DNA of 64,000 nucleotides from a virus. Location of the stretch: positions 1 through 64,000 of IMG/VR virus record IMGVR_UViG_3300010151_000009; one strand, 5' to 3'. Below, piece by piece: positions 14,701 through 56,281 of this stretch; the stretch's first letter is position 1, and every line of letters begins with the position of its first letter. The position numbers and the translations under genes are program-made. The notes under the pieces are model-generated. The model made no database searches and was not told the DNA's origin. It was given only the letters and a program-made list of their open reading frames with translations.

Positions 14701-16590
14701 ATCTGTAGTAGCTTTAATAGTATTTATTTCCTCTTCTAAAGAGTTAGCTAACTCACTTTGTTTATCTTTAAGTTCAGTATTAGTAAGATCATTTAAATCA
14801 TTATGATGAAAAGCATTTCTAAATTGTTGAACAGACATATTTCTAATCATATCAATATCATCTCTTAATGTCTCTTCATACCCAGCATCTAGTCTACTTG
14901 AAATATAATTATGTAGATTATCATACTCAGCATTCTTTTTCATATATGGACTATCCATGATTTGTCCAAAATCACTAGCATCTTGTATAACACCTGCTCT
15001 TACTAATGCATCTGTTTTTGCAGCAATAGCAGATATTACATTTTCATCTTCATTTAAAATACGTTCATAAGAATCAATCATTTTTTTCTCCATCTTAATT
15101 TGATCCAATGTACCTGCTATACCTCCATGATGCTTATATCCTGATTTAGTTTTTCCGGTAGCTCCATCTTTAATAGATCTACTATATCCAGGTAATCCTA
15201 TTGCAGCTAATAAGAATCCTATACCAATTTCCTTTTGTCCTTCAGGACTTCCATATGCCTCTGCAAATACATTATCTGTATGATTCAATAATTCAGTTGT
15301 CATTCCTAAAAATCCTGGATCTCTCTTACTTTGATAATAGTATTCTGCAGCGCTTTGTCCTGCAAGGTCTGCTAATTTTTGTCCCCCTTCTTCTACAAAT
15401 CCTTCATAAAGAGGTGTTTTAAGTACTCTCCATGCGTTATTTGTAAAAGCGCGTTTTTTACTTACATCCTTATATAAAGCCTTATAATTTTGTACTTTGT
15501 TTTTTATATCTTGTTTAAATTTACCTGCTACACTTTTTTGAGTAGCATTAAATCCTTTTCCAAATATCTTTGGAAACATTAAATAATTACCGTATCCAAC
15601 TAAAGCAGTGTTAGCAGCAAATACAGAATTTGCACTCTTTGTAGCTAAATCATATAAATAAGCTGCTTCATTTGAATTAGGATCTCTATGATATTCATCT
15701 TTAAAAGCAGCGTGTAGTTTATCAATTGTTTGATCTCTGTGATGTCTTGCTTCTACTCCCGCTTCATACATTGCACCTGTTCCTATCTGTCGCATTGTTC
15801 TTCCTGCATTCTTCCATTGATTACTTTTTATTGTAGCATCTATACCTTCATCAATAGCAGTCTTACCAGTTCCGGTTTTCATGAACTTTGTTTTCTTAGT
15901 TAAACCAGTTCCTCTACCCATCTTATTCATAAGTTGAGCTGCTTTCGATGCTACCGCTGAAGAAGCCATTCCAGCAGTTAACATCTCAGATAAAACAGCT
16001 CCTGTTACAAAAGATGCTCCTTGAGAAAAATCATTAAACCAAAAGTTAGCAGTTCCCATTCCTTTGAAGAATCCATGCTCTTGTTCTTCTTTAGTATAGA
16101 AATGAGGAAGTTTACCATCCATCCAATCATTAATACCATCTAACCCACGTTGAAAACTATTATCAAAGAAATCAGCACCAGAATCTTGTATTCCCTTTCC
16201 TTGTGCTAACCCTCCTAAAAAGGCTCCACCTCCATATAATAACCCTACCGTAGAACCTAATACATTAGTTCCTACACGCGTTACAAATTTAGGTAAACCA
16301 TGAGCTGCTTTTTCTCCAAAAGATTGATTATAAGCTCTTAAATCATCTGCATCATCAGATATAAAAGAAAATGGTCTATCAATATACTTATCATAAGAAG
16401 TATAATCTACGTTTTTAATAGATTGTCCATAAGGACCTGATAGTCCTCCAGTAAGCTCTGTACCAAATTCTTTAAGAACACTTTCAGCACTTAATGTAGT
16501 ATCTATTAAATTATTTTGATTTAGTATTTGATCTCCTGGTTGAATTAAATTTGGAGAGGTTAATCCACCTAATTGTTTTTTCTTTCCCAT
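2713..16590 (-). CDS. Giant virion-packaged DNA-dependent RNA polymerase polyprotein (4625 aa) with N-terminal cargo region and zincin domain
   Basis: Catalytic KSGADYDIDKL (~5600-5625) is preceded by IGFRIPTEGLNS, as in crAss-like/phi14:2 virion RNAPs. Zincin motif TLYHEAYHG (~9830-9855) is followed by EWLAEEFREY. Hydrophobic Gly-rich segments occur near the N-terminus. Confidence 0.93.
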   Translation of the reverse strand: MGKKKQLGGLTSPNLIQPGDQILNQNNLIDTTLSAESVLKEFGTELTGGLSGPYGQSIKNVDYTSYDKYIDRPFSFISDDADDLRAYNQSFGEKAAHGLPKFVTRVGTNVLGSTVGLLYGGGAFLGGLAQGKGIQDSGADFFDNSFQRGLDGINDWMDGKLPHFYTKEEQEHGFFKGMGTANFWFNDFSQGASFVTGAVLSEMLTAGMASSAVASKAAQLMNKMGRGTGLTKKTKFMKTGTGKTAIDEGIDATIKSNQWKNAGRTMRQIGTGAMYEAGVEARHHRDQTIDKLHAAFKDEYHRDPNSNEAAYLYDLATKSANSVFAANTALVGYGNYLMFPKIFGKGFNATQKSVAGKFKQDIKNKVQNYKALYKDVSKKRAFTNNAWRVLKTPLYEGFVEEGGQKLADLAGQSAAEYYYQSKRDPGFLGMTTELLNHTDNVFAEAYGSPEGQKEIGIGFLLAAIGLPGYSRSIKDGATGKTKSGYKHHGGIAGTLDQIKMEKKMIDSYERILNEDENVISAIAAKTDALVRAGVIQDASDFGQIMDSPYMKKNAEYDNLHNYISSRLDAGYEETLRDDIDMIRNMSVQQFRNAFHHNDLNDLTNTELKDKQSELANSLEEEINTIKATTDKVNKAFVNYDTDVKRAMIHAWSMSKNAYAREEDMYKSIEEKMKAKLNIQGDVESRTVRDEREDISLKERIKRLWSRFTKKQKREILALPESKTLLAEKNIREFTDPTHIEELFLNLTQELKSIESQIEALETDGIEAKNAFMGGTTEQQTKWAKEQNLEQKHAELFDKTQKLGKAIEEGLEAEIGADEQALLDAWKDRDAADYALHKDEVIQMLKDARKLRARRHRAINMYNELLDYREDAKMLPLGKFGIPQYPFAEHGQKVPLPKILRMQMIPDEKEENAENITDIGLKRLFKKYTGQIIEFEYARKDTTTKKGLLQIAREAGLEEKVLKDAEDIKRSSKVNTDIAAIKMAMQTNGLRVQEGPKTGKYRVFVRTGKPSSNSDNFLIDFPTKETLELLTRKRTLERLPDNQAAKDELKEINELLKTSDHVNRFNDRNLDFLKQAKNIKVVDKAVQIQEYLDVALNASKKDLHIKLDEIEKELSKHVEDAELLSTELIKASTEKSNKASQRQLAKSIRNLDIKWQQAERAIEVLEIDKEEVKQKLKDVTNLTSAINKSEDIPGFTDPAFHPIILSKAAEFLNSKWLDHKEVIDQFVDKKFFKEVDLFSDIMTEDTEKNKDLAELIFSFATNPAAELPAELANLLDKKVEHLKYKYEQAQPLLKKLRSLIVFRKTKGNENQYDLRYDQDAAIAAYEDLKNEVDLLKVKYDAAVNALRSKINIELLPLAQGIADQQDLGQRYNAIRDLFAIYATDTNNALRSVTETPFDEVTTGEIETHSSEMSEEEFIKTNLNNNQNTKPRVYYNSPSLIHIGGAKTAGSHAYAERRIEELENEALNRDLTSWEQEALAAYKHQAIFFDFTARAGVRSKAQYNLANYSLMTITRHNIPTGLKDKVYFYDHNRVRAAKTENKDRYSKATNENFTNAKARPELKETILLVVVDKNNNPVIHNGEVVYTSMPDSEAYTTVYDKKTGEGHRVYKYGRADLNLENGTVPSIKINGALYFQGDMSEQAVAINEQNKKFRERILTLPSGEVKYLAVSGKSAGLQIWVDGPDGRAMARETLVKREEDVQNIDLRVAVNAKTQKVSIGPQEYTVHAGNVYAVHNGNLVRFKMPKLPAKMVSNVYNLIRLLATQVTNSYRENSKFTPETAYLIPGTEKSITKQISELIYYGKHARTRENQQYAIYTQGNVLYFGAQSMTFEQLADKAQFAPLHKDLLNFLQDQRVQVNNAALKDDQEIRLTHRNSNRALYAEQKAVFEKVYKQKQAWIKKGRKGKFAPRLGKEEKTLYNKKESRPKYNTYKYYEVGEKLNVLTSTWNNYTHFLMGTKAKEHTVQEERQLPEIPLTVNMRPDTDTGKKSSESWRSSQYRNIYLIYSPNASDPDNWDTQSINNAKIEQSAEELGEVIELTDEQEDQLFEDQTTMDNLDPNMAPSGVITGKQYIYTSNEGVKLHFKVTSIDHENFKVMLEPIQLSNNKGILSLDTLSLEVLDSFNMLTYVTEGKALITPVKQDVYEQKHQTLDDIKKSPKKKKRQKRNKKKTDDNEDYGGKSRLALMSEDYRLMDLYAENEKFEAMIPKDRYGKPIFSVKVVAGLIHGRDWGYFSKTGDILLSSEAERGTLYHEAYHGITLKLLSKEERETLYNEVRAQRGKATTYKGEVKSLKDFTNLEADEWLAEEFREYVIADGTYKVGSRVKKSFMDKVFDFLLKFFRNLSQSKALFHRIHTGYYNNGIEEYLSYDIAEALEGREGASMSAYRMQSGVQRDLNNGVTVSVFDIIQSKTGVSIPDLIGNKHNEAALRKILTPVYGAPGTKNTAWSRMHNSINTQLNILIDEHNQAMDESEMPEATELDIQRLDMKLDKLEVEIESLEQNLLVLDEDWPALVSRNLQVLQQLHLQVNSRTLEDEFEEVEEEDTKSRDTLGIRDPREINLKSTIDPGLRVLLSTLPQSHVYKDGSTTLKTNKAGVPTLAPFGEVVTTLYKQLANLDTVEDIVAKLRTLAEENRTYKILIDRLGLQHGLEGLSSHDPNFNQVSMLIDFLGSFHNASDAYVMLLANQTKAENHPGRYFTNSNTERVENIVKRGWSANFKRNLRLKRNKGKSTTTGRLVLNLDYPVTIRTKGIKRTETLRKWIEINKNLNQIIPLLNEIGLEFTNLPKLIKNLNASEGGMAEFIENANWFFSEILDLEGDMSNLFGGDVEGNLKKLVRYEVDSTNLAITLQHTNPDGKQLFGITRKNYINLLVDKLNTSEEEIESLMESPYMHGSLYNKERVIKVRTIEGGKDITKGQGFDISRTTEANIALLHVNSILEGYTPLLRPGNKKMERAVMIGQNKYRNREEMISYLQDLLRSEIVTANNIKNDPSVRQISRLRTHGESLQFFNDPENFPDIYNHSRVLSFINAPNVSLDDVELQNFVGSSAVVKNITDFLDTRQTNILAALEEFGFIGKGPKNTYINIGIDNVHVEDANKSLATPVWSKNGKMDPALMNRIVEKISYNQLIGVVEQTRLFLGHPALYSDIFKRTSGMVGTKKYPTVNNHILSWMNTNMPNKYTNKEHTSLVTKVTRKEIIQEKSAHLDSYIKRLNELNASEELKKDVTDRYSNMEIFDGGGFITLDFYRSVLFLTHNWTNEMEEAYQELELINEDQPTLADLGSRAIFPPLKPQVFADSRLGMLNIKIFDKFALYPIHPKLSKTIMGLKSNAVTVMDQVYDDMVKNEVDYMVFQSSSKVGAKTNSKGEFEPFYDVNGNYQPLSADPDYLQTYDLEYFGIQLDPAKKYKGLVRVGTQSASMSLMNVFDKGLLNKDYNKQFDKNRTWEDVASEFHNIHTALIEKDAAKLAAKLGFIKGSTGYTQLEAGTTKQYLKQAVLDEMHRRNTPEVMRDTIEELFNGEIYYTNQLPNKQKIDELFYSIVTSEVIHRKVNGEMSVLQSDTGFRTIQADKQLPESEYRQLKFYDFEKDGKTVTAMEVYLPHYFKQKFLTTSQIDISQFTPAALELIGFRIPTEGLNSVEFIKVVGFLPQSAGPNVIAPAEMVAKSGADYDIDKLTLYLPHLVKSEDGNIDIARPADNNATSLRLLDAPGYKAAAIKLFGSDIAGLNNFIRRLEIADQLEANMQHEDALKELAELDTELDLLGFEALPQVFKENREVVENMLQSLMKDILRHPDSFAQLIAPVGAFNIKRTSDEIHSRQLAAGIEGVTAEPSTLFEKFSLRSLIRTTYQMHQTLGGTGIVATNLTHLGKSQRAGLEFKGEIPLYQSGIPIGTQVGPYLNFEGFTPGQPVSLSSVKDTAGNYINRSMQQYVTAYVDGEKDPFIMYVNGGRMGAGVHMLLVRAGVPVNTVLKFMSQPVLQEYFSLKNKQSVAGATTPYGEGMLNEGKVVSAIQKMLGKANKEEVPLNEAVLDDPNPEVSMLTTPLAKMGKGQKALQAQIFNDFLRYKEYAEYLRKAQQISAFDTSRLKNGYELIFLNALEQIITEDTESNPLVFNNLNGLTGFSRGVESLGVSETVRETPPFLQPLKQLFTESPQFFKNTDLKENIVLTQQNGVINPFKAKMIQLAKDLIAEGKSKDEITYILRALDNHLTSFIWQNIPRENMKSLNDKEFDLVRMLMQGPNSLPARVFLAKDIFPDNLLVQDLIATLDTETDITDFDHTVDKLQLFSRKYDPDEIDDLADSWYELHNSGGVGQQLAEDILLYSIIKSGTQFHPSSFFHALPGAEVLRITNPMLQNFHDAIHRVAKGTTEYLTTKKVEEIVADFFDHSWDNPRVVRQIFATDPFLQLSATEEQFAAPNWLNDERITLIVPRDEGEVKGIATEAGRTYFKAHFQRRDTVYVSRPKKGLAGHLQEPGREDSIIESNNHPFGREKLKMTESVVNTIRSRKKSLLSYPYGKTHSGVKILPDGTQIKLDLILDTPYKYLFVKANMLKFGALNKTQMQGFIARREGYKNWSEFAKAPRNKNFIKGEERKSFFDIKVLDAKAIMTARKDAPAVKGYDPSNITDLKTLNKDKEC

Positions 16591-16600
16591 AATCTATTTA

Positions 16601-18781
16601 TTAGTATCCTCGTACTTCTGATTGCATGTACATATTAAACACAGACTTATATTCATTGGTTTCTCTTACAGATTGCATATTATCTGCTCCATATTTTTGA
16701 GCAATTGCATTGATTAGTTTATAGTTTTGTTTTTCAAAAGACTCAACTATATAACCTTCAGCATACATAGCTGCATCTGGCTCAGATAGCCCCATAACTG
16801 CAGAATACATTCTTGTTAAAACTCCATATAATTGATTTATAGAGGCTCCTCCAAATTCTCCCTCTCCTTGTCCTCCATCTTCTATTGCATTAAGCATTTG
16901 TCTAGAACGATCAATTACAATTAAATCAGACTTATCTATCATTTGTGCAATTCTTTCTTCTAATACAAATCCAGAAGAAGTATTATCTTTAGATTCTGCT
17001 AAATATAATTCTCCATTAATATTCCATTTAAACATTAACGGTGTATTATCTTCAATACTTGGAGTTATAACACCTTGAAACTTCATTGTAGCATCTCCTG
17101 GTTTAATTGGATTTCCGGACTTATCTGTAAACATTTTATCCCATGCAGGACTATCTTCAGGAACACCCATTATATTCCAATCTCTTGGATCAAAATTTTC
17201 TTCAAGTGTTTTAATTGCATTTGTAGTTTTAGTATTAGATAGATCAGGAATAAAAGTCTCTGCTTCAAATACATCTCCTTGATAATTATCAATAGCATCA
17301 TTCATTTCATCCCCTCCATGATGTTGATTAAACCTTAGTAAAGAAAGAGCATTCTTTTTCAATTGTTCGTACTCAGGCTCACCATTTTTATAATTAGTGC
17401 CAAGTAACTTATTAATCTCGTCAACAGCTTCTAAATTATCTTCTAACTGTGCTGCTTCAGAATCCCATATTCCTAAGAATGAATCCCATCCTTTATCTGG
17501 ATCATTGGGATCCCATCCTTCTCCTTGAGGCCTCATTATATCTCTTACGTTTCCACTATTATCAAAGGTCATGTCTAATAATTGCATACCTGCATTACCT
17601 ACTCCAGTAGCTAAAGCAGCAATACCAACTGCGCCCCACTCAAGTGGTCCTAGCCAAGCAAATGGTGCACCAACAGCAGCAACAGATCCCGCAGATGTAA
17701 ATACTTCACCCCAATCAAAATCATCCTGCATTAAATAAGAAGGTTGATATGTATTAGTTGTCATATAATTAACTAAAGCTCCAAATTCTTCATGCCCTTT
17801 AAAGTAATCGATATGATGTCGTTTAAAGGCTTTATAATCTTCAGGGGATAATGTATTCTTAGCAGTACTAGCAAAGATTCTATTCATATTTATAACTGAT
17901 TGTTTGTCTCCACCACTTTCTAATATCTCTTGATTCATACTTAACATCTTATTAGTATAATCAGCTACTGTTTCAGAAGGTACTCCAACATTACCTTTAC
18001 TCATATGTCCACCTAATCCAGCAGAACGCCCATTAGAAAAATCAGCTGCAGCTTTAGTCTGATGTATATATTGATTAGTAAAACTTTTCATTCTACTGTG
18101 CAAATTGTTCATTGCCTCATCATGAGACATGCCCTCTATTTGTGTTAATCTTCTATAATCTTGATCTCCTATATATCCTTTTAAATAAGTCCCTATTAAT
18201 CCATATGCAATCTTATCAGCTTTACCTCTAGATATACCACTCCAATCAGCTTTAATACCTTTTAATAAACCAGACATTTCTTTATCATAGTCTTGTTCTA
18301 ATTCCATCATAGGCTCATAAATCGCTTCAACATGTTTATTAGATTCCGGGTCTTTATACCAAGAAGTATGAGTTGCAGCACTTCCTTTACCAAAGTCCCA
18401 CATATTTCTACCTTCTAAGGTAGCCTTTCTCATAGTATCTAATTCACTTTTTCTGTTTGTCATAGATTTTTTAGCTGCTTGTAATCCTTTATCAGATTCT
18501 AAATCAACCATAATCTCTTGGATTAATAACGAAGCATCTTCATAATTACCATTTCTAGTAAATTGCTCTAGCCTATCCCTAACATATTTTTTAGAACTAT
18601 CTACTAAATGTGCATCTCCAGGCATTGTTTCAAATTTACCTAATGTTTTATCAATTAAATCAACTTTTTCCTTATTTTGATCCCATCTATCTGCTAATAC
18701 AGTATTAACTTCTACAGAGTATGGATTTACATATTGTGATACATAAGGTTGTAATTCATATCTACTATATTTATTTGCCAT
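16601..18781 (-). CDS. Virion cargo/ejection protein with putative membrane segment
   Basis: 726 aa, N-terminal YxxQPYVSQYV motif, central hydrophobic Gly/Ala stretch (AGSVAAVGAPFAWLGPLEWGAVGIAALATGVG), located directly upstream of the virion RNAP. Confidence 0.7.
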   Translation of the reverse strand: MANKYSRYELQPYVSQYVNPYSVEVNTVLADRWDQNKEKVDLIDKTLGKFETMPGDAHLVDSSKKYVRDRLEQFTRNGNYEDASLLIQEIMVDLESDKGLQAAKKSMTNRKSELDTMRKATLEGRNMWDFGKGSAATHTSWYKDPESNKHVEAIYEPMMELEQDYDKEMSGLLKGIKADWSGISRGKADKIAYGLIGTYLKGYIGDQDYRRLTQIEGMSHDEAMNNLHSRMKSFTNQYIHQTKAAADFSNGRSAGLGGHMSKGNVGVPSETVADYTNKMLSMNQEILESGGDKQSVINMNRIFASTAKNTLSPEDYKAFKRHHIDYFKGHEEFGALVNYMTTNTYQPSYLMQDDFDWGEVFTSAGSVAAVGAPFAWLGPLEWGAVGIAALATGVGNAGMQLLDMTFDNSGNVRDIMRPQGEGWDPNDPDKGWDSFLGIWDSEAAQLEDNLEAVDEINKLLGTNYKNGEPEYEQLKKNALSLLRFNQHHGGDEMNDAIDNYQGDVFEAETFIPDLSNTKTTNAIKTLEENFDPRDWNIMGVPEDSPAWDKMFTDKSGNPIKPGDATMKFQGVITPSIEDNTPLMFKWNINGELYLAESKDNTSSGFVLEERIAQMIDKSDLIVIDRSRQMLNAIEDGGQGEGEFGGASINQLYGVLTRMYSAVMGLSEPDAAMYAEGYIVESFEKQNYKLINAIAQKYGADNMQSVRETNEYKSVFNMYMQSEVRGY

Positions 18782-18792
18782 GTTATTTTATT

Positions 18793-21396
18793 TTAATAAT
18801 ATTTTCTACTGTATCCTTGAGGGACTTTTGCAAATCCTCCTTTTTTTGCATTAGCTCCTTTTTTAGAATCAATTGTATTATCTTTACTTGTTCCTGTTTT
18901 CTTAGGTGAAGATCCGTATGTACTAGTTGTTTGGTTGGTTGTTAGCATATTTTGAACCCATTCTTCAGATGTATCTCCTTCAGTAATTGGTCTATTTCCT
19001 TTTATAGCCAAAGCTAATCTTTCTTGAGCATTATACTGTAATCTATCACTATTCATACCAGCCAATGTTTTAACCGCACTATCAACAGCCATTAATTTTC
19101 TATCTTTAGTAGCGGCATCTGCACTTCTATTGAACTCATCAACTAAAGCTTCTTGTGAAGCATTAAATTTATTAGTTTGTAGATTTGCAGCTAAATTAGT
19201 TTTACTTGCATCTAAAGCATTTGCGGCATTTGTAGTTTTTCTTTCTTGATTCATAATAGCTTCTTGATTAGCAATTGCAACATTTGCTCTAGATTCTTGT
19301 GCTGAAATCTCTCTATCACCTTGTTGTTTTTTACTATAAGCCATCATTCTATTTGACATACTTGTAGGACCTCCTCCAGATGTATCAATAGCTCTAGTTA
19401 AAGCTCTATAATCCGCAGAATTTCTAGCTCTTTCTGTATTCATGTCTATTCGTTCTAGGTCATGTTTAGAAATTCTTTCTGCTCTAACTACTCCAGGATG
19501 TTCCATAGGATGTTCTTGCATATAATCTGGTCCTTCTTTAAAAGCCATCATTGCAGGTAATAATTGTGCTCCTGCCGTGATCATTGATATATCATCATAT
19601 CCTGTTTTTATCTTATCTTCAGTTTTTGTAGTTGTTGTTGTTGTTGTTGTATCTTCTGTAGTTTCACCGTCTCCAGAATCAGGATCACCCCCATCATCAG
19701 GAGGAGTATTACCTATTGCTGTTCTTAATGTTTGTTCCCCAAATTTACCATCAACTGTAATTTTATTATCCGTATGTAATTCATTCCAAGCTGTTTGATA
19801 TTTTTTTACCGTAGCCGGGTCATTCATCATATCATAACTAGTTATACCTGCTTTTTCTAATACAGCAGGATCAACATTTGACATCCACTCTTCACCAAAG
19901 TTGTCATGACTTGAAATGTAATCTTTAAATTTTTGCTCATCTTTTCCAAGATAATATTGCATATCTCCTTTTTCAGTTTTATATGAAGGTTGATAATCAG
20001 CTACATCCCCATAAACTTCTGAATCATAAAATTCTTCTGAAGCTACTGGATATCTATTTCCTTGTGTATTCTTAGTAGATTGATTCTTATTATTACTTGC
20101 ATTTACTACAGGAGGCTGATTACCATCAACTCCATCAATAGAATTTGGTATTCCATCATTGTCATCATCTTGCTGTGCCCAAGTAACAAAATCTCCAGTT
20201 TGATGCTTACGTACTCCACCGTGTTTAGCTACATTGTCAGGATCTCTACCTGCTTCTCCTTTCTTTTTAGCATCTGCTTCTTGTAATTTAGCTAACCAAT
20301 CTATTTCTTCTTGACTCGCACCTTTCTTTACCATATTTTTATGAATATCTGAATAAGCTAATCCACCTTTTTTCATATAAGATGAAAAGAAATAATCTCT
20401 TTGTCCTCCTCCTTTCATAGTTACTTTATCCATAGTTTCTCCACCTTCTACTTCTGTGCCCTCATCTAACTTAATACCACCTTCTTCATGACTTTGTCCT
20501 AAAAATTGAACAGCTCCTCCTCCTATAGGTTGTGCCACTCCTCCATCTAATTTAGTACCACCAGTATCATATTCAGTATATTGAGGTTTTACTTGTCCTT
20601 GTTCTCCTGTTTGTTGTGGTGCTCCTGCTTGATAATTAGTCATTTTAGGTAATAAACTTCCTTCTCCAGGTATAGTAGGTTTACCTTGAGGAACACTCAT
20701 ATATCCTCCCATTTGTTGTTTCAAAGGAGGTCTTTTAAATCCTTTATATTTATCTGTTACATCATCATCTTGGAATTGATCATAGATATATTTAGATGCC
20801 GCGCCTCCTGCTAACCAAGGCCAAAACTTTTTTAATTTAGTAGTTGTAGGAGCATTAGGTCCAGTTTTAGCTGTACTTCTTTTACCACTTTTTAATTTTT
20901 TACCTTTAGTTACTTTAATCTCTTTATTACCAATATTTTTTACTTTTTCAGGTATTTTTTTAGCTTTATCTTTAGCTGATTTAGCAGTTTCTTTTATAAC
21001 TTTCTTACTCTTATCATATGTTTTTTTAGCTGCTTTACCTTTTGTTGCAAACCATCCTAATTTAGCTAAAGCTATTCCTTGTCCTGTTCCTGCAGGAACC
21101 ATTGTACCGGCATTCATTCCTGTTCTTATAGCATGTTCTTGGGTAGCTTCATCATCTCCTATTAACCAATTATATCCTGTTCTTACAGCAGAAATACCTG
21201 TATTTAGTGCATCAGGAATTATACCTACTACTGGAGTCATTCCTCCTACAGTTAAACCCGTTTGTATATTATCCCAAGTTTCAGTAGTTGATTGCTTTGA
21301 ACCAGGATTTGATGCTTGATGCTCTCTCATTGCTCTATAGTTAGGATCGATTAAAAAATCTTTCCCTCCCATTTGATATTTTTTTATTTTTTTCAT
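18793..21396 (-). CDS. crAss-type cargo protein (C1-like) with pre-toxin-like N-terminus and PG-binding-like motif
   Basis: 867 aa. Contains GQSHEEGGI...EVEGGET (motif typical of crAss cargo proteins), ITVDGKFGEQT (PG-binding-like) and several KxxxGG motifs. Confidence 0.75.
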   Translation of the reverse strand: MKKIKKYQMGGKDFLIDPNYRAMREHQASNPGSKQSTTETWDNIQTGLTVGGMTPVVGIIPDALNTGISAVRTGYNWLIGDDEATQEHAIRTGMNAGTMVPAGTGQGIALAKLGWFATKGKAAKKTYDKSKKVIKETAKSAKDKAKKIPEKVKNIGNKEIKVTKGKKLKSGKRSTAKTGPNAPTTTKLKKFWPWLAGGAASKYIYDQFQDDDVTDKYKGFKRPPLKQQMGGYMSVPQGKPTIPGEGSLLPKMTNYQAGAPQQTGEQGQVKPQYTEYDTGGTKLDGGVAQPIGGGAVQFLGQSHEEGGIKLDEGTEVEGGETMDKVTMKGGGQRDYFFSSYMKKGGLAYSDIHKNMVKKGASQEEIDWLAKLQEADAKKKGEAGRDPDNVAKHGGVRKHQTGDFVTWAQQDDDNDGIPNSIDGVDGNQPPVVNASNNKNQSTKNTQGNRYPVASEEFYDSEVYGDVADYQPSYKTEKGDMQYYLGKDEQKFKDYISSHDNFGEEWMSNVDPAVLEKAGITSYDMMNDPATVKKYQTAWNELHTDNKITVDGKFGEQTLRTAIGNTPPDDGGDPDSGDGETTEDTTTTTTTTKTEDKIKTGYDDISMITAGAQLLPAMMAFKEGPDYMQEHPMEHPGVVRAERISKHDLERIDMNTERARNSADYRALTRAIDTSGGGPTSMSNRMMAYSKKQQGDREISAQESRANVAIANQEAIMNQERKTTNAANALDASKTNLAANLQTNKFNASQEALVDEFNRSADAATKDRKLMAVDSAVKTLAGMNSDRLQYNAQERLALAIKGNRPITEGDTSEEWVQNMLTTNQTTSTYGSSPKKTGTSKDNTIDSKKGANAKKGGFAKVPQGYSRKYY

Positions 21397-21398
21397 AT

Positions 21399-22952: not shown

Positions 22953-22957
22953 GTTTT

Positions 22958-46178: not shown

Positions 46179-46189
46179 ATAAGGTTAAT

Positions 46190-47191: not shown

Positions 47192-47216
47192 TTTCTTTTG
47201 TTTTTAAAATTAATAA

Positions 47217-48398: not shown

Positions 48399-48399
48399 G

Positions 48400-49206: not shown

Positions 49207-49273
49207 AATAATAGTTCTTTTAAAGTTTTAATTAAGTGGATGTAAAGAATAACTCTCCGTATAATTATTAATT

Positions 49274-49303
49274 AAAGAAGCGGGGGGATTGCTCCCCCAG
49301 CAA
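49274..49303 (-). terminator. Hairpin terminator/attenuator downstream of the MCP
   Basis: Minus strand GC-T-GGGGGA-GCAA-TCCCCC-C-GC followed by TTCTTT: GNRA tetraloop with an imperfect U-tract. Confidence 0.75.
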
Positions 49304-49345
49304 CTCTAATCAAAAACCAATATATAGACGCAAATTAATGCCAAC

Positions 49346-50794: not shown

Positions 50795-50841
50795 TTTCTT
50801 AATTATTTATAGGGTACCTATTTCCCTGTTAAGGTATATTT

Positions 50842-51966: not shown

Positions 51967-51987
51967 TATATATATTGTTTTAAGTTA

Positions 51988-52058
51988 CAAAATTAGTTAA
52001 TTATAGCGTTTAATTTTTGGTTTTTATTTTTTCTATATGTCTATTATTATATAACACT
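51988..52058 (-). promoter_or_regulatory. Putative late promoter: upstream box AGTGTTATATAATAATA plus Bacteroidota -7 element TAATTTTG
   Basis: TAnnTTTG at 51988-51995 and a 17-bp box at 52042-52058; the same arrangement recurs upstream of the portal gene. Confidence 0.65.
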
Positions 52059-55000
52059 TACCATGCTAATCTTTGCTTGTATCCACCCGTCTTTTGTATT
52101 GATGCAGTTAATACAGCATCTTCCTCAGCAGTATAAGGTTGTAGTCGTCTATTAATATAACGATTAATTTGACTAATATATGCTTCTGGATTTTCATCAT
52201 TACTCAGTTTATCACGCGCATGAAGTGCAAACTCTTTACCAAATAATGACTCTAGTCTTCCCCAGTTAGTACCACTAAGATCTGAAGTCTCTCCAAAATA
52301 ACCTTCACGAAGTAATTCAAGTTGTGCATCAATACTCATTCCCTCATTCTGTCCAAATTTAAATAATTTACCAGAACCTTGGTTATGAGTTAAAATTGTC
52401 ATATTACGTACATCTTGTTCTGTTAATCCTAAACTTGGATTATCTGTAGCATATTTACTAAGCACAGCATATCGACGTGCAAATCTATCTATAGTATAAG
52501 CTAATGATCTCGAATCTTGATCATCTATATTAGCATCATTTAAATTATAATAATCAGCTGTACCTTGTGCAGTTCCATCTAATTTTATTTTTAAAATTCC
52601 TCTGGATACAGCTCCTCGGTCACTCTCTTCACCTATAATATTTCTTAGTATTCTTGATTTTGCTATCTTAGTATCAGTTGGTTTATTTAATCCTAAATGT
52701 GATTCATGCATTGCTGTAGCTAAGACAGCTTCACTTAACCAATTATGATCTATTTCGATTCCTAAATCACTTGTAATTGGAGCAACATTATTTTTTACAA
52801 AATTAATATTATCATTTAAAATTTCTTTTTCCTTATCTGTATAACCTATTAAAATTTTATTATCTACTTTATTGTTTTTATCACCAATTTCTATAGTATC
52901 TACTTTTTCTCTTTTCTCTGCAAGAAACTCAATGTAAGCATCATTATCATGTTGGATTTCTTCTGACTCATATTGATATTTCCATTGAGGTTTATTTGTT
53001 TTTGGAGAGGTTACCCAAGCAATTCCACCCCCAGTAATATCATTATACGCATCTTCATGCACTATTCCTCCCGCTCCTGTAGCATTAATTTGATGACTAA
53101 TATAGGGAACTCCATCTCTAATTTCAGTTACCCATCCTACGTGTGTATTATATGAATCTCCAGTATGTCCATCATAAGCTGCCTCCCATTCTCTTGAATT
53201 GTCATATACAAGGCCAACTACATCTCCAACTTGAAATATTTCTGCTGAAGGTTGATTAGTTTTTCTATGTACTATAGATTTTGTTCTTGCATCATTTGCA
53301 TTTAAAACATTATCAAAATCTGAATGATTATAAATACTAAATTTTTGTACTCCTCCATGATCTATTATATTTTGTTCCATTGTCCAGGCATGTCCACCAA
53401 CTCCCATTCCCCAAGCATCGTATCCTTCTCTTTCATATTCATTATTTACATATTCTGCACACCCATCTTCATAACAGAAACTATCTCTGTTTGCAGGATC
53501 AAAATATAAGGATTGTGTAGTTTGTAATTTATCCATCAATACTTGTTCATAAGCTAATTTTGTCATAGGTCCAAATTTTCCATCTACTCCATCTTTATTT
53601 GGTCCATATGATCCAAGCATGTCCCCTCGACCAGATGCAATAATTTCTCGTTGTATCTCTTCTACATCTTCTTGATTCATCCTAGTGTATTGTCCAAAAT
53701 AAGTTTTAACAACTTCTGCAGCAGATTCTTTGACTTCTTTTTCTGCACGTATCTGATTGTTCTGTTCGATATTCCTATCATAAGACTCGTACATGTCTTT
53801 TACGTTTACATCAGTTAAGTTATGATCATAAACTTCAGGTTCTTTTTCATCTTCCACTACTTCTGGTGCATCTTCAGGTTCCTCAACTGTTACTGTAGGT
53901 ATTATAGGGACTTGGGATTGAATTTGATCAGTTGGTAAAGGTTCTATTTGATATAAATCATTATCATAAAATCCTCCATCTTGTTTTTTAGTAGATTTTC
54001 TATTATTCCATTTCTTCCTTTCTTCATCTTTATATTTTTTAGGTAATTTATCCCAAGAATATTTTACTTTACTCTTATCTTTTAAAGTATAACTAAAAGA
54101 TTTCTTATGATATTTTCCCCAAAATTCAAATATTTGCTCGTCAGTAGGAGGTTTCTTTCCTTTAACTAATTTATCAAAAGCATCTCGTTGTTGTGTACCA
54201 TGATAAATTTTCTCAATTAAAAAGATAGCATCTTGATCTTCTTTATCAAATGTTGAAAAATCTGAAGATGAATTTTGATAATTATCCTTTAATTTATTTA
54301 CAGAACTATGATTTGCTTCTCTAAAATCTATATTACCTTTATTTTCTAAAAACTGTTTAGTAACATTTACTGCAGTATTACCACTTCCGTCTTCAGTATT
54401 CTCAAATTGATATGTTCCTCTACCAGGTCCATCAAATGGAACTCTTTTACCATCTACTGTTTTATAAGACACCTGCTTTTGTTCAGGATTATTATATGAC
54501 TCATGATTACCAATTGCACTCATAACTGTTCTAACGTAATCCATATTTCGCCCTGTCTTAATTAAGTAATTTTTTGTAATTGTATATAAAGATTCGTGTC
54601 CAGCATCGTGAGTTGCTCTAACTTGAGAAATATATTGATCTGTTTGTGAAGTTGCAGGTTTAATCCCATCTATAACTCCTTGTGGAACTTTAGAATCTCT
54701 ACCTCCTCCATTTTGATACTTTCTTAATCCTCCTTTTTTAAAAGTAGTAAATGGATTTTTACCATCATTTGTAAGTTGTCTTATCTCATCTCCACTTAAG
54801 ATTCCTTTAGATTGTCTTATAGGAATATTTTGTTTCCCTACAATTTGAGTTGTTGTACTAATTCCTGGAGGATGTATAGTATTAGTATTTATCACTCCTC
54901 CATGAGGTATCTTATCAAGACTTTTAATATCCGTGCTTGTATTAAATATCCCCATACTAGGATCATTATGTCCATAATTATCTAACCCACTTATTCTGTC

Positions 55001-56281
55001 ATATATCTGATCATTACTAAGTTTTGAAACATCATCCTCAAATATATTTATTTTTGAAGTATATGCACTTCTGTCAGGGGCTCTACCATATCTAGAATGT
55101 GTTTGTCCTGGAAAATCTCCATAATATACAACATCACTGTTACCACGTACACCACTAAAACCCGCTCGATTTCCTACTCCTCCAGTAGGAGTTGTACCCA
55201 TAAACTCAGCTAATTGTTTTGGGTCGCTAGGATCAAATCCATATTTCTCTGCTGCTTTTAGTAATTCCTCATTTCTCATAACGTTACCATTTATATTAAC
55301 AGTACGATATGCATTATTTCTTGAAGAATACTCCTTAAGTAAATCTTCTCTAGTAGTTATTTGTTTATATCCAGCATCACTATTTTTAACTATACCTGGT
55401 TGGTGTAAATCAGATAATTGTTTATTTAATTGTGCTTTTTTTCCTCTATCTAGAACATTATAAACTTTTTTACCAACGTTTTTACCCTGTTTAAGAACAG
55501 CTCCTCCAGCAAATGGTACGGCTATACCTGCCATTGAAAGACTTGCGTCACCATAATTACCTCTGTATGTAGATGCCGCAGCACTTAAAAGATCTCCTAC
55601 TTCTGAAACAATTGGAATACCTGTCATACCTATAGCATCTCCCGCTTTAACAGGATCTGTTAAAAACTCTGTTATATCTTCCTTAGCTTGTATCACATGT
55701 TTTTTTGTTGCCTCTTTATCATCAGCTACTTTTACATTTTTTTCCTCGAAAGTCATTGGAGTCCCATCTTTATTATAGTACTTAGAACCTTGAGTTGTAC
55801 TTACAGTATTAGAAAGAATTCCTTTATTTTTTGCTGTCTTTGTCGTACCAGTCTTTTCTTCTTCTAAGAATTGGTTAATAAACGCATCCTTATCAAATCC
55901 AGCATCTTGATATTTTCTTACACCACCTTTTTGATAGGTACCAGGAGATTCAATAACAGTTCCTTCATCTTCTCCCATAGAAAGATTTTGTATTCCTGGA
56001 GGAACAGATTTATATGATCTAACTAAATTACCTTGATTGTCAACTTTTTTAATGTCTATAGGTTCAGACATTCCTACAGTATTCATAGGACCTGAAACAT
56101 TTGGAAATACCATACTAGATCCAGGAGGCGCTCCTCTTAAACCTTGCTCTTGCTCTGCTTTAGTTCGAGCAACTTTAGCATTTGCAATCTGCTCTTTTTT
56201 AATTAGATCTCCTATAGATCCTTTATAATCATTAGCAAGAGCTGACTTTAATATCTCAAATTGTTTTTCTAATGCATTCAT
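52058..56281 (-). CDS. Multi-domain virion cargo protein: pre-toxin-like plus putative ART-like domain, lysozyme-like, PG-binding, CHAP/NlpC-like and SLT-like domains
   Basis: 1407 aa. Motifs: AIGNHES...GPGRGTYQF; VEEIQ..GVDGKFGPMT; DGCAEYV..GHAW..GDVVGL..THVG; AMHES..SRGILKIK..THNQG. Domains are separated by KxxxGG motifs. Confidence 0.7.
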   Translation of the reverse strand: MNALEKQFEILKSALANDYKGSIGDLIKKEQIANAKVARTKAEQEQGLRGAPPGSSMVFPNVSGPMNTVGMSEPIDIKKVDNQGNLVRSYKSVPPGIQNLSMGEDEGTVIESPGTYQKGGVRKYQDAGFDKDAFINQFLEEEKTGTTKTAKNKGILSNTVSTTQGSKYYNKDGTPMTFEEKNVKVADDKEATKKHVIQAKEDITEFLTDPVKAGDAIGMTGIPIVSEVGDLLSAAASTYRGNYGDASLSMAGIAVPFAGGAVLKQGKNVGKKVYNVLDRGKKAQLNKQLSDLHQPGIVKNSDAGYKQITTREDLLKEYSSRNNAYRTVNINGNVMRNEELLKAAEKYGFDPSDPKQLAEFMGTTPTGGVGNRAGFSGVRGNSDVVYYGDFPGQTHSRYGRAPDRSAYTSKINIFEDDVSKLSNDQIYDRISGLDNYGHNDPSMGIFNTSTDIKSLDKIPHGGVINTNTIHPPGISTTTQIVGKQNIPIRQSKGILSGDEIRQLTNDGKNPFTTFKKGGLRKYQNGGGRDSKVPQGVIDGIKPATSQTDQYISQVRATHDAGHESLYTITKNYLIKTGRNMDYVRTVMSAIGNHESYNNPEQKQVSYKTVDGKRVPFDGPGRGTYQFENTEDGSGNTAVNVTKQFLENKGNIDFREANHSSVNKLKDNYQNSSSDFSTFDKEDQDAIFLIEKIYHGTQQRDAFDKLVKGKKPPTDEQIFEFWGKYHKKSFSYTLKDKSKVKYSWDKLPKKYKDEERKKWNNRKSTKKQDGGFYDNDLYQIEPLPTDQIQSQVPIIPTVTVEEPEDAPEVVEDEKEPEVYDHNLTDVNVKDMYESYDRNIEQNNQIRAEKEVKESAAEVVKTYFGQYTRMNQEDVEEIQREIIASGRGDMLGSYGPNKDGVDGKFGPMTKLAYEQVLMDKLQTTQSLYFDPANRDSFCYEDGCAEYVNNEYEREGYDAWGMGVGGHAWTMEQNIIDHGGVQKFSIYNHSDFDNVLNANDARTKSIVHRKTNQPSAEIFQVGDVVGLVYDNSREWEAAYDGHTGDSYNTHVGWVTEIRDGVPYISHQINATGAGGIVHEDAYNDITGGGIAWVTSPKTNKPQWKYQYESEEIQHDNDAYIEFLAEKREKVDTIEIGDKNNKVDNKILIGYTDKEKEILNDNINFVKNNVAPITSDLGIEIDHNWLSEAVLATAMHESHLGLNKPTDTKIAKSRILRNIIGEESDRGAVSRGILKIKLDGTAQGTADYYNLNDANIDDQDSRSLAYTIDRFARRYAVLSKYATDNPSLGLTEQDVRNMTILTHNQGSGKLFKFGQNEGMSIDAQLELLREGYFGETSDLSGTNWGRLESLFGKEFALHARDKLSNDENPEAYISQINRYINRRLQPYTAEEDAVLTASIQKTGGYKQRLAW

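What the first reader, a model, noticed from the sequence alone, without database searches (positions are those of the whole stretch)
16560..56281. A shared basic K-x-x-x-GG tag marks predicted cargo proteins: candidate packaging or processing code
Seen: the motif occurs at the N-terminus of the RNAP (MGKKKQLGG); in the 867-aa protein (KKYQMGG, KQQMGG, EYDTGG, MKKGG, KHGGVRKHQTG, AKKGGF); in the 517-aa protein (RKGGVRNRYQTGG, ARRGGY); at the end of the 286-aa basic protein (KYRTGGF); and in the 1407-aa protein (YQKGGVRKYQDAG, FKKGGLRKYQNGG, KKQDGGF, QKTGGY). A doubled form (K/H)GG(V/L)R(K/N)x0-1(Y/H)Q appears four times in three otherwise unrelated proteins. I did not notice it in the portal, ring or fibre proteins. 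Inference: it is a portable peptide that either docks cargo inside the procapsid or is a Gly-Gly protease site, analogous to GG-directed processing by adenovirus and ASFV proteases. It would let the phage load arbitrary domains for injection. It may already be noted for other crAss-like phages; I cannot check.
Basis: partly seen in the sequence, partly recalled or inferred. Interest (0 to 1): 0.85.

Follow-up and report, generated by a model that had tools for sequence, protein, structure and literature searches.

The report
Gly-Gly junction tag on crAss-phage cargo
Several proteins that this marine crAss-like phage probably carries in its particle and injects share a short conserved peptide ending in Gly-Gly at their ends and between their modules, but it is not known whether the peptide is a docking handle or a cutting site.

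Summary
The loose K-x-x-x-GG form is not above chance: 13 seen against 9.2 expected. The sharper core (K/R)(K/R)-[YF]-Q-x-G-G-hydrophobic-(K/R) is well above chance. In the phage's own 69 ORFs it occurs only in the 867-, 517-, 286- and 1407-aa proteins, with a KKQxGG variant at the RNAP N-terminus.

In 125 related IMG/VR loci, [YF]QxGG occurs 57, 20 and 4 times in the homologues of three of these proteins. About 1 or fewer is expected for each. It never occurs in muzzle, portal, terminase, fibre, scaffold, ring or capsid proteins.

The motif sits at termini, in disordered linkers and at the edges of exchangeable modules. The 867-aa protein is the structural homologue of crAss001 cargo protein C1 (Z 8.7).

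The function is unresolved. I lean to an uncut docking or anchoring peptide, because the homologous joint is intact in the solved crAss001 virion. A protease site is a close rival, and a conserved HExxH...E module lies in the co-packaged RNAP polyprotein.

I found no description of the motif in the paper library. This scan has met the same motif in at least 66 other genomes.

The parts
16561..16584 (-). N-terminal variant tag KKKQLGGL (residues 3-10) of the 4625-aa virion RNAP polyprotein
   Evidence: The same M-x-x-KKQxGG start is found in 3 of 20 related RNAPs: L132, L136 and L137.
2713..16590 (-). 4625-aa virion RNA polymerase polyprotein
   Evidence: phmmer to PDB 6vr4 (phi14:2 gp66 RNAP), E 6.3e-22, residues 3108-4108. 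No Pfam hit.
9391..10053 (-). Zincin-like module of the RNAP polyprotein (residues 2180-2400). HEAYH is at 2249-2253 and an invariant Glu is at about 2299. It is a candidate reader or protease.
   Evidence: HExxH is kept in 14 of 15 related segments. G66, H70, E71, H74, E120 and F126 are invariant in alignment A2. The fold search was inconclusive, best Z 5.0. Pfam gave only Tox-MPTase4 at E 0.11.
16601..18781 (-). 726-aa protein in the C2 position, without the tag
   Evidence: It has five GG, none in motif context. 1 of 13 relatives has one [YF]QxGG, an N-terminal copy. BLASTP to crAss001 gp46 was not significant.
18793..21396 (-). 867-aa C1-type cargo protein
   Evidence: VIA-align top hit is 7qog_M (crAss001 cargo protein 1 gp45): Z 8.7, rmsd 2.5 A over 87 residues, 25% identity, model 279-382 against chain 425-549. 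The chain's identity was confirmed.
21361..21384 (-). N-terminal tag KKYQMGGK (867 aa, residues 5-12)
   Evidence: It lies in a disordered stretch, pLDDT below 50 for residues 1-126. Relatives start M-basic-YQxGG.
20698..20721 (-). Internal tag KQQMGGYM (867 aa, residues 226-233)
   Evidence: Weight-matrix score 16.0 bits. It lies in a disordered linker, 147-278.
20554..20574 (-). Flank motif EYDTGGT (867 aa, residues 275-281) at the N-edge of the portal-binding domain
   Evidence: 17 of 43 BLAST HSPs start at 270-289. Relatives read [YF]QxGG-x-x-LPGG here. It is structurally equivalent to AFGG 425-428 of crAss001 gp45.
20230..20562 (-). [quoted passage not shown]
   Evidence: pLDDT 83-93. Z 8.7 to 7qog_M. 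G285, G286, G300, H303, G307, Y335 and S338 are invariant.
20191..20226 (-). Doubled tag KHGGVRKHQTGD (867 aa, residues 391-402) at the C-edge of the C1 domain
   Evidence: 14 of 43 HSPs end at 390-409. Disorder begins at residue 390. FpV4 gp30 has GVRKYGGG after its C1 domain.
18829..18846 (-). C-terminal tag KKGGFA (867 aa, residues 851-856)
   Evidence: 6 of 20 full-length relatives have basic-GG-hydrophobic in the last 20 residues.
21399..22952 (-). 517-aa protein between muzzle and C1, with a Gly-rich hydrophobic segment
   Evidence: Sequence. It is fused to the C1-type protein in relative L009.
22854..22895 (-). N-terminal doubled tag RKGGVRNRYQTGGQ (517 aa, residues 20-33)
   Evidence: 16.7 and 11.4 bits. 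9 of 12 relatives have a basic-aromatic-x-x-GG start.
21420..21437 (-). C-terminal tag RRGGYK (517 aa, residues 506-511)
   Evidence: 11 of 12 relatives have GG in the last 20 residues, inside the conserved tail SGYDLGRN..GG..MPRY. 11 of 20 HSPs end at about 510.
30092..30952 (-). 286-aa very basic protein (K 21.7%, R 10.5%) between Ring 2 and Ring 1
   Evidence: Composition. No Pfam or PHROG hit.
30122..30145 (-). C-terminal tag KYRTGGFI (286 aa, residues 270-277)
   Evidence: 12.4 bits. Small basic ORFs at the same place in relatives end in (K/R)YQxGGF(L/I)EP.
52058..56281 (-). 1407-aa portal-adjacent modular protein, lying between portal and scaffold
   Evidence: Gene order. In 42 of 45 related loci one ORF of 293-1553 aa sits here, usually with a conserved N-domain and a GG-containing basic C-tail. 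ESM-Atlas leads point to SLT/lysozyme (535-765) and CHAP/NlpC-P60 (930-1100). Pfam did not confirm these.
55898..55936 (-). Doubled tag YQKGGVRKYQDAG (1407 aa, residues 116-128), the border of the conserved N-domain
   Evidence: 25 of 60 HSPs end at 120-129. 23.0 bits. Relatives read GT(V/I)IE(S/T)P..YQKGG and then diverge completely.
54701..54742 (-). Doubled tag FKKGGLRKYQNGGG (1407 aa, residues 514-527)
   Evidence: 20.7 and 15.1 bits. HSP ends and starts fall at 510-529.
53969..53989 (-). Tag KKQDGGF (1407 aa, residues 765-771)
   Evidence: 9.9 bits. 5 HSPs end at 760-779.
52079..52096 (-). C-terminal tag QKTGGY (1407 aa, residues 1396-1401)
   Evidence: 28 of 36 full-length relatives have GG in the last 20 residues. 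Typical tails are (K/R)(K/R)GG(Y/L/M/I)(K/R)x(K/R)CKYGCW or GGYRSKYGW.

Best explanation
The peptide (K/R)(K/R)-[YF]-Q-x-G-G-hydrophobic-(K/R) is a short linear recognition motif. It is specific to a subset of the phage's internal, ejected proteins: the C1-type protein, the 517-aa protein, the small basic protein and the portal-adjacent enzyme string. A weak variant sits on the RNAP.

It brackets exchangeable modules and caps protein ends. Selection acts on the peptide, not on the DNA.

My preferred mechanism is that it is an uncut docking or anchoring handle. A common partner inside the particle would read the exposed basic-aromatic-Gly-Gly stretch. Candidate partners are the portal wing, the inner face of the tail rings, or the acidic scaffold. 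This reading would hold these proteins at the portal and tail axis, so that they are loaded and leave first.

Shown: the motif exists, is specific to these proteins, lies at module borders and in disorder, is conserved at peptide level, and the 867-aa protein is a C1 homologue.

Inferred: that a partner reads the motif, which partner it is, and that the chain stays uncut.
For: Specificity:
- Own genome: the motif is found only in four proteins.
- Relatives: [YF]QxGG counts are 57 (1.18 expected), 20 (0.73), 4 (0.28) and 18 (1.96, unassigned ORFs that mostly lie in cargo positions).
- It occurs 0 times in 71 k residues of muzzle, 51 k of portal, 39 k of terminase, and in fibre, scaffold, Ring 1, Ring 2 and capsid proteins.

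Border position:
- BLAST HSP ends pile up on the motifs.
- AlphaFold puts the copies in disorder or exactly at domain edges.

Portability:
- There are 53 flank-dissimilar sites. K/R is 47% at -1, hydrophobic residues are 55% after GG, and K/R is 42% next, against backgrounds of 11.5% and 31%.

Peptide-level selection:
- Synonymous codons vary as in the background.

Docking rather than cutting:
- The joint at the N-edge of the C1 portal-bound domain corresponds to A425-F426-G427-G428 of crAss001 gp45.
- There the solved chain is aligned from residue 425, across the Gly-Gly (Bayfield 2023, PMC10172136, sections 7 and 10 read).
- Tails after the last GG can be as short as 2-3 residues (GGKR, GGYKH), so cutting there would remove almost nothing.
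- No prohead-type or clan CE protease was found.
- Scaffold, capsid and portal proteins carry no site.
- The basic tags face a scaffold with a long acidic N-terminal region.
Against: - A docking handle repeated at nearly every module seam, up to 7 per protein, has no precedent that I know. Identical short peptides at every seam are the hallmark of polyprotein cleavage.
- Gly-Gly followed by a hydrophobic residue fits many protease sites.
- A conserved HExxH...E module travels in the RNAP polyprotein.
- The crAss001 joint is a degenerate version (AFGG, no Gln, no basic residues), so it may not report on the canonical motif.
- The C2-position protein and most RNAPs lack the tag, so it cannot be the general loading signal.
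- No partner was identified. AlphaFold did not place the motif residues confidently.
Confidence: 0.4

Rival explanations
1. The motif is a protease site. The cargo proteins would be polyproteins and pro-proteins cut after Gly-Gly, before the hydrophobic residue. The cut would happen in the particle or after ejection. This would release the enzyme modules and remove short terminal peptides that may first serve as targeting signals, as with the T4 capsid targeting sequence. The cutter could be the zincin-like module of the co-packaged RNAP polyprotein, or an unrecognised or host enzyme.
For: - The motif stands at the seams of exchangeable modules and near both termini.
- There are doubled sites.
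- The residue after GG is hydrophobic in 55% of 53 sites.
- Natural fusion and fission happen at motif-bounded edges. In L009 the 517-type C-tail is internal. This would be neutral if the products are cut apart.
- HExxH plus an invariant Glu is kept in 14 of 15 relatives.
- The Drobysheva preprint (10.1101/2020.03.07.982082, passages read) says that fused RNAP polyproteins are 'likely cleaved' and that gp65 orthologues carry a zincin-like protease domain.
- In T4, N-terminal 10-residue targeting peptides are removed, and Alt is cut at both ends (PMC9026906, passages read).
- Adenovirus and ASFV core-protein processing at GG sites is recalled, not checked here.
Against: - The homologous joint is continuous in the crAss001 virion model.
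- No motif lies at internal junctions of the RNAP polyprotein.
- No site occurs in scaffold, capsid or portal proteins.
- No recognisable maturation protease was found.
- The zincin fold is unconfirmed, Z at most 5.0.
- C-terminal remnants of 2-3 residues make cutting there pointless.
- Conserved family-specific tails after the last GG (..KCKYGCW) suggest that the tail itself is used.
Confidence: 0.32
2. The motif is a passive structural element, not read by any partner. It would be a flexible Gly-Gly hinge with an aromatic and basic cap. Such a hinge could let modules unfold and thread through the portal and tail. Alternatively it could bind packaged DNA or the membrane interface through Lys/Arg and Tyr.
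For: - It is always in disordered linkers or at domain edges.
- It has basic flanks.
- The carrier proteins are thought to pass a channel narrower than 50 A partly unfolded (PMC10172136).
- The 286-aa carrier is a very basic, DNA-binding-like protein.
Against: - A mere hinge would not need an almost fixed Tyr/Phe-Gln-x-Gly-Gly core kept across 53 unrelated contexts.
- A hinge would not be needed at the extreme termini, for example residues 5-11 of the 867-aa protein.
- Other large virion proteins with linkers, such as muzzle and fibre, never use it.
Confidence: 0.18
3. The motif is a recombination scar. It would be kept because a conserved DNA stretch at module borders promotes cassette exchange, as proposed for junction motifs of polymorphic toxins.
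For: Module borders and swapped downstream sequences coincide with the motif.
Against: - The four doubled copies in the window use different codons for the same residues.
- Across relatives the Gly, Tyr and Gln codons at the motif vary much as elsewhere in these genes.
- A motif of 15-24 nt with variable third positions offers little homology.
Confidence: 0.05

Closest known systems
Cargo protein 1 (C1, gp45) of Bacteroides phage crAss001 (Bayfield et al. 2023, PMC10172136; PDB 7QOG chain M)
   Same: - The 867-aa protein lies one gene beyond the muzzle gene, after the 517-aa gene. In crAss001 gp45 directly follows the muzzle gene.
- Its domain 279-382 superposes on the portal-bound domain 425-549: Z 8.7, rmsd 2.5 A, 25% identity.
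- gp45 also has 20 GG dipeptides with aromatic-GG contexts: AYGG, AFGG, FAYGG, an N-terminal FDTGG, and C-terminal EYTGG and KAKGGKV.
- The domain is bracketed by such motifs in both phages.
   Different: - BLASTP finds no similarity. hhalign matches only a short KGxFTxYCGGKVT segment, 81% probability.
- The crAss001 motif lacks the Gln and the basic flank.
- In the crAss001 proteins I checked (portal to gp47, first 50 kb), the motif patterns I scanned for were not found in gp46 or the gp47 part, and gp46 has only 1 GG.
- The paper does not mention the motif or cleavage: 0 hits for 'cleav', 'proteoly' and 'protease'.
Capsid targeting sequence of phage T4 internal proteins (Mullaney and Black 1996, as described in PMC9026906)
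   Same: - It is a short portable peptide at the N-terminus of otherwise unrelated internal, ejected, often basic proteins.
- It allows diverse cargo to be loaded.
- Terminal peptides occur at both ends of some cargo, such as Alt.
   Different: - The T4 signal is read by the scaffold core and is removed by the prohead protease gp21 at L/I-x-x-E.
- Here no such protease is found.
- The motif is also internal and C-terminal, and ends in Gly-Gly.
- Neither targeting nor removal has been shown.
   Same: - There are sites ending in Gly-Gly in internal, basic, DNA-associated proteins and polyproteins.
- The sites lie near termini and between modules.
- The basic Cys-containing C-terminal tails of the portal-adjacent family (..GG-x-K-R-K-C-K-Y-G-C-W) recall the pVIc cofactor peptide.
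   Different: - No clan CE protease was detected, either by Pfam or by a His...Asp/Glu...Gln...Cys pattern.
- Cleavage has not been shown.
- The one solved homologous joint is uncut.
Prohead-protease motifs of giant phages (SPN3US, phiKZ group; PMC7411985 and PMC10052503, abstracts seen in the listing)
   Same: Many ejection proteins carry a shared short motif and are processed during head maturation.
   Different: - Those phages encode an essential, recognisable prohead protease.
- They also cut capsid and scaffold components.
- Their motif ends in Glu (recalled, not checked).
Junction motifs of bacterial polymorphic toxins (VENN and similar); recalled
   Same: A constant N-terminal part, a short conserved junction peptide, then freely exchanged C-terminal modules. 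The 1407-aa family shows this layout.
   Different: - Here the motif recurs several times per protein and on several proteins.
- There is no DNA-level conservation.

Membership tests
crAss C1 cargo protein (gp45-like), for the 867-aa protein | Gene lies after the muzzle gene and before the C2 and RNAP genes | tested here: met
   The order is muzzle (Pfam crAss_MUZ, E 4.7e-44), 517 aa, 867 aa, 726 aa, RNAP. crAss001 has the order gp44, gp45, gp46, gp47.
crAss C1 cargo protein (gp45-like), for the 867-aa protein | Compact portal-bound domain with the fold of gp45 residues 425-552 | tested here: met
   7qog_M ranks first of 48,161 chains: Z 8.7, rmsd 2.5 A, 87 residues aligned, 25% identity. The next rows are generic helices at Z 8.0.
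crAss C1 cargo protein (gp45-like), for the 867-aa protein | Detectable sequence homology to gp45 | tested here: inconclusive
   BLASTP best E 0.98. hhalign 81% probability, E 1.2e-5, over 34 columns elsewhere in the protein. Local alignment of the two domains scored 44, against shuffles of 31.7 +/- 5.8.
crAss C1 cargo protein (gp45-like), for the 867-aa protein | Physically present in the virion, bound to the portal | not testable with these tools
   The phage is uncultured (IMG/VR record).
T4-type capsid targeting sequence | Short N-terminal peptide shared by unrelated internal proteins | tested here: met
   N-terminal copies occur in the 867- and 517-aa proteins and the RNAP, and in their relatives.
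T4-type capsid targeting sequence | Removed by a phage prohead protease after assembly | tested here: inconclusive
   No protease family was found in the 84.5-kb genome. Whether the peptide is removed cannot be observed here.
T4-type capsid targeting sequence | Necessary and sufficient to load a protein into the head | not testable with these tools
   This needs a reporter fusion in a cultured phage. Against necessity: the C2-position protein and 17 of 20 related RNAPs lack the tag.
Clan CE (adenain / pS273R type) Gly-Gly processing system | Substrate sites ending in Gly-Gly in core proteins | tested here: met
   (sequence level only).
Clan CE (adenain / pS273R type) Gly-Gly processing system | A His-Asp/Glu-(Gln)-Cys cysteine protease encoded by the virus | tested here: not met
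   There is no Pfam peptidase hit in any ORF scanned. A pattern scan gave only implausible matches in the fibre, a sulfotransferase-like protein and a phosphoesterase. A very divergent enzyme could be missed.
Clan CE (adenain / pS273R type) Gly-Gly processing system | Chains are cut at the sites in mature particles | tested here: inconclusive
   The only structural datum is that the homologous crAss001 joint (AFGG-W) is continuous in 7qog_M. There are no data for this phage.
Gluzincin metallopeptidase (module in the RNAP polyprotein) | HExxH motif plus a downstream Glu as third metal ligand | tested here: met
   HEAYH is at residue 2249. H70, E71, H74 and E120 are invariant in 14 aligned sequences. 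HExxH is present in 14 of 15 related segments.
Gluzincin metallopeptidase (module in the RNAP polyprotein) | Zincin fold, or a profile match above threshold | tested here: inconclusive
   The model has mean pLDDT 54.8. The best VIA Z is 5.0, to an HD domain. Zincins (2l0r, 3dl1, 9g0j) score Z 3.5-4.0 among unrelated rows. Pfam Tox-MPTase4 scores E 0.11, 12.9 bits, below the cut-off of 25.

The most novel reading that the evidence does not exclude
The tag is a two-step code. It first docks a defined set of ejected proteins at the portal and scaffold axis. It is then cut after Gly-Gly by the zincin module that travels in the RNAP polyprotein, during maturation or just after ejection. This would free lysozyme-like, peptidase-like and membrane modules. 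It would be adenovirus- or ASFV-style core-protein processing in a tailed phage that has no prohead protease, and the tag would be a portable handle for loading and releasing foreign cargo.
Probability: 0.2. Interest if true: 0.85.

Novelty: new variant of a known kind. Interest (0 to 1): 0.6.

Why it matters
Crassviruses are among the most abundant phages in the gut and are common in the sea. How they choose, store and eject their large protein cargo is unknown.

A short peptide that marks a defined subset of cargo proteins and every seam of their exchangeable modules gives a concrete, mutable handle on that question. It predicts which uncharacterised ORFs are internal proteins. It explains how enzyme cassettes can be swapped without losing incorporation. 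It could also become a tag for loading foreign proteins into such particles.

The motif also links environmental crAss-like phages to the solved crAss001 virion, because the C1 portal-bound domain is bracketed by aromatic-Gly-Gly in both. I found no description of the motif in the searchable paper library. Supplements could not be opened and may hold proteomic detail that bears on cleavage.

Tried and rejected
Homologue searches that found nothing:
- tblastn of the 867- and 1407-aa proteins against GenBank phages gave no match.
- A direct IMG/VR scan with the 867-aa protein matched 13 stretches by pattern, but none was a relative.
- Relatives were reached instead through Ring 1 and the portal.

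Unbiased motif tests that were too weak:
- 5-mers shared by at least 3 proteins: 2 seen, 1.92 in shuffles.
- The best inter-protein 10-mer score was 43, against 39-46 in 8 shuffles. The motif pair scored only 37.
- The within-protein run was dominated by the Cys repeats of the fibre.

Homology to crAss001 by sequence:
- BLASTP to gp45 and gp46 was not significant.
- hhalign hit only a short segment.
- Foldseek of the whole 867-aa model against PDB gave nothing at E <= 0.001. VIA-align then found 7qog_M.

Protease hunt:
- Pfam on 66 ORFs or segments and PHROGs on 20 gave no peptidase family.
- The clan CE residue pattern gave nothing credible.
- The zincin fold was not confirmed.

Domain names for the 1407-aa protein (lysozyme/SLT, PG-binding, CHAP/NlpC-P60) rest on my reading of motifs and on ESM-Atlas leads at 0.85-0.93. 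Pfam gave nothing better than PG_binding_1 at E 0.095.

An alternative tag, (D/N)P(L/F)TG at the RNAP N-termini of distant relatives, is not shared by their other cargo proteins: 15 scattered hits.

DNA-level conservation as the cause was rejected.

A loose C-terminal regex also picks up the 171-aa family, NRGGIEVNKYSM in 45 of 45. That is an unrelated conserved C-terminus, so I do not count it.

Papers:
- The crAss001 isolation paper has no 'gp45', 'cleav' or 'proteoly'.
- The Crassvirales review has no 'protease', 'zincin' or 'polyprotein'.
- Rows dropped before counts: identical ORFs were collapsed, 1643 to 1487. Only families with at least 3000 residues were tabulated there. ORFs under 60 aa were never called.

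Full report
**What the window is.**
- All large ORFs from 3 to 63,725 lie on the minus strand.
- The window is the first 64 kb of an 84,511-bp IMG/VR virus record rated 98% complete.
- Pfam and PHROGs identify a crassvirus virion block:
  - muzzle, 22958-28732, crAss_MUZ, E 4.7e-44;
  - Ring 1, 28732-29616, E 1e-57;
  - Ring 2, 30972-31733;
  - capsid protein, 49346-50794, E 8.6e-83;
  - portal, 56278-58590, phrog_6547, E 2.7e-122;
  - large terminase, 58998-60962.
- The 4625-aa protein matches the solved virion RNA polymerase of Cellulophaga phage phi14:2 (6vr4, E 6.3e-22, residues 3108-4108).
- The portal is only about 30% identical to those of gut crassviruses. The phage is therefore a distant, environmental member of the group.

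**Check of the observation.**
- In the 69 non-overlapping ORFs of the whole genome, the doubled form GG[VL]R[KN]x0-1[YH]Q occurs four times, in the 867-, 517- and 1407-aa proteins only.
- [KR][YHQ][QR]xGG occurs five times, in those proteins and the 286-aa protein.
- Within-protein shuffles expect 0.00 and 0.11 of these two forms. None of 2000 shuffles reached the observed counts.
- The pattern in the title, K-x-x-x-GG, is not enriched: 13 seen, 9.18 expected, reached in 274 of 2000 shuffles.
- Because these patterns were chosen after the fact, I built a weight matrix from relatives only (44 flank-dissimilar sites).
  - It finds 9 sites above 8 bits in the own proteome, against 1.01 expected.
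  - It finds 6 above 12 bits, against 0.21 expected.
  - All lie in the same four proteins.
- Pairwise and exact-word tests were too weak to see a motif this short.

**Relatives.**
- Ring 1 and the portal brought in 125 related loci.
- Among 1487 distinct ORFs, [YF]QxGG occurs as follows:
  - 57 times in homologues of the 1407-aa protein (1.18 expected);
  - 20 times in homologues of the 867-aa protein (0.73 expected);
  - 4 times in homologues of the 517-aa protein (0.28 expected);
  - 18 times in ORFs without a window homologue (1.96 expected), which mostly lie in cargo positions;
  - once in the 726-aa family;
  - never in muzzle, portal, terminase, fibre, scaffold, ring or capsid proteins.
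- The 104 instances (own genome included) fall into 53 sites with dissimilar flanks.
- Their logo is basic residues upstream (47% K/R at -1), Tyr/Phe, Gln, x, Gly, Gly, then a hydrophobic residue (55%) and a basic one (42%).
- Codons at the motif vary as elsewhere, so the peptide is what is selected.

**Where the motif sits.**
- BLAST HSPs between the window proteins and their relatives end or start on the motifs:
  - 25 of 60 end at 120-129 of the 1407-aa protein;
  - 17 of 43 start at 270-289 of the 867-aa protein, and 14 of 43 end at 390-409;
  - 11 of 20 end at about 510 of the 517-aa protein.
- An AlphaFold model of the 867-aa protein (mean pLDDT 57.5) has folded parts at 279-389, 470-562 and 602-800.
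- Its motifs lie in the disordered stretches or exactly at the edges of the first domain. KKGGL at 342-346 is the exception and belongs to the fold.
- In 42 of 45 loci the gene between portal and scaffold encodes one protein of 293-1553 aa.
  - Most have an N-domain of about 115-136 residues ending in YQKGG, variable modules, and a basic tail after a last GG.
  - Typical tails are ..KKGG-Y-R-S-K-Y-G-W or ..GG-x-K-R-K-C-K-Y-G-C-W.
  - 28 of 36 distinct full-length proteins have GG in the last 20 residues.
  - In 3 loci the gene is absent.
- Terminal and internal copies interconvert. In L009 a 517-type and an 867-type protein are fused, and the 517-type C-tail is internal.

**Are the carriers cargo?**
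- The 867-aa protein is cargo by homology. Its domain 279-382 superposes on chain M of 7QOG, cargo protein 1 (gp45) of crAss001: Z 8.7, rmsd 2.5 A, 87 residues, 25% identity, first of 48,161 chains (chain identity).
- The RNAP is cargo by homology.
- The 517-, 286- and 1407-aa proteins are cargo only by position and composition.
  - ESM-Atlas gives leads to SLT/lysozyme and CHAP/NlpC-P60 modules in the 1407-aa protein.
  - Pfam does not confirm these.
- The tag is not on all cargo.
  - The C2-position protein lacks it in the window, and 1 of its 13 relatives has one [YF]QxGG, an N-terminal copy.
  - Only 3 of 20 related RNAPs start with KKQxGG.

**Link to solved crassvirus structure.**
- crAss001 gp45 has 20 GG dipeptides, many preceded by an aromatic residue: AYGG 207-210, AFGG 330-333 and 425-428, and FAYGG 559-563.
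- It also has FDTGG near the N-terminus, and EYTGG and KAKGGKV near the C-terminus.
- Bayfield et al. resolved residues 214-245 on Rings 1 and 2, and 425-552 on the portal wing.
- The second segment begins with A425-F-G-G, and the chain in 7qog_M is aligned from residue 425. That Gly-Gly is therefore followed by an intact bond in the mature particle.
- In relatives of the window phage the equivalent position reads [YF]QxGG-x-x-LPGG. It is a canonical copy of the motif.
- Flavobacterium phage FpV4 keeps GVRKYGGG after its C1 domain. phi14:2 shows little of the motif.

**Mechanism.**
- Two readings remain close.
- For an uncut docking or anchoring handle:
  - the intact crAss001 joint;
  - remnants of only 2-3 residues after some C-terminal copies;
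  - conserved family-specific tails;
  - no site in scaffold, capsid or portal proteins;
  - no recognisable maturation protease in the genome.
- For a cleavage site:
  - the motif stands at nearly every seam of polyprotein-like chains, up to seven per protein;
  - Gly-Gly is followed by a hydrophobic residue;
  - fusion and fission at motif-bounded edges look neutral;
  - an HExxH...E module is conserved in the RNAP polyprotein, in 14 of 15 relatives.
- The literature already proposes the zincin as a possible processing enzyme (preprint 10.1101/2020.03.07.982082).
- The zincin's fold could not be confirmed.
- I put docking at about 0.40, cleavage at about 0.32, a passive hinge or DNA/membrane contact at about 0.18, and a recombination scar at about 0.05.

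**Comparison and novelty.**
- The nearest concepts are the T4 capsid targeting sequence, the protease motifs of giant phages (abstracts only), and Gly-Gly processing of adenovirus and ASFV core proteins (recalled).
- None of these shares the sequence, and the defining reader is missing here.
- My searches of the paper library found no description of the motif.
- Earlier notes of this scan report the same Gly-Gly junction motif in at least 66 other genomes, with the same open question. My results agree with them.
- New for this genome are the portal-adjacent family with its conserved ends, the weight-matrix cross-check, the codon test, the conserved zincin motif, and the finding that C2-type and most RNAP proteins are untagged.

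Noticed in passing
window 37093-45609 (-): The 2838-aa protein is built of about 20 cysteine-rich repeats of the type GC(T/M)DPxAxNY(D/N)...C. These dominate all within-protein repeat scores. The protein has no Pfam hit.
   Followed up: partly
window 58669-58998 (-): A 109-aa SET-domain protein (Pfam SET, E 5e-10) lies between the large terminase and the portal. It may be a lysine methyltransferase expressed with the virion genes.
   Followed up: no
window 9391-10053 (-), RNAP polyprotein residues 2180-2400: A conserved HExxH motif plus an invariant Glu about 50 residues on (zincin-like) is kept in 14 of 15 related phages. The fold search was inconclusive.
   Followed up: partly
L144-L151 (RNAP N-termini of distant relatives): These RNAPs begin with two or three (D/N)P(L/F)TG(L) repeats instead of KKQxGG. 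The repeat is not shared with their other cargo proteins.
   Followed up: partly
window 61213-61728 (-): A 171-aa protein upstream of the terminase has an invariant C-terminus, NRGG(I/V)EVNKYS(M/I), in 45 of 45 relatives. This is not the cargo motif. It may be a small-terminase-like protein.
   Followed up: partly
window 55892-56281 (-), residues 1-130 of the 1407-aa protein: The conserved N-domain of the portal-adjacent family gives a weak DUF192 match: E 5.5e-4, 20.5 bits, below the cut-off of 27.
   Followed up: no
window 20230-20562 (-); L131 gp45; L152 g070; L153 gp30: The C1 portal-bound domain carries a signature G-x-S-H-E-x-G-G-(I/V) with an invariant His (H303 here). The signature is shared with crAss001, phi14:2 and FpV4. 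It looks like a metal or catalytic site, but no function is known.
   Followed up: no
L009 16392-19643: A 1083-aa ORF is a natural fusion of a 517-type and an 867-type protein. The N-terminal ~220 residues of the 867 type are missing.
   Followed up: yes
L121, L122, L127: In 3 of 45 related loci the portal gene is followed directly by the scaffold gene. The portal-adjacent modular protein is therefore dispensable.
   Followed up: no
window 50842-51966 (-): A 374-aa protein between the 1407-aa gene and the capsid gene has an extremely acidic N-terminal region (runs of Glu/Asp) and a basic C-terminus, as scaffolding proteins do. It has no family hit.
   Followed up: no
window 21050-21290 (-) and 55500-55680 (-): Gly- and Pro-rich segments in the 867-aa protein (about residues 43-105) and the 1407-aa protein (about 205-260) resemble each other. 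I did not test this.
   Followed up: no
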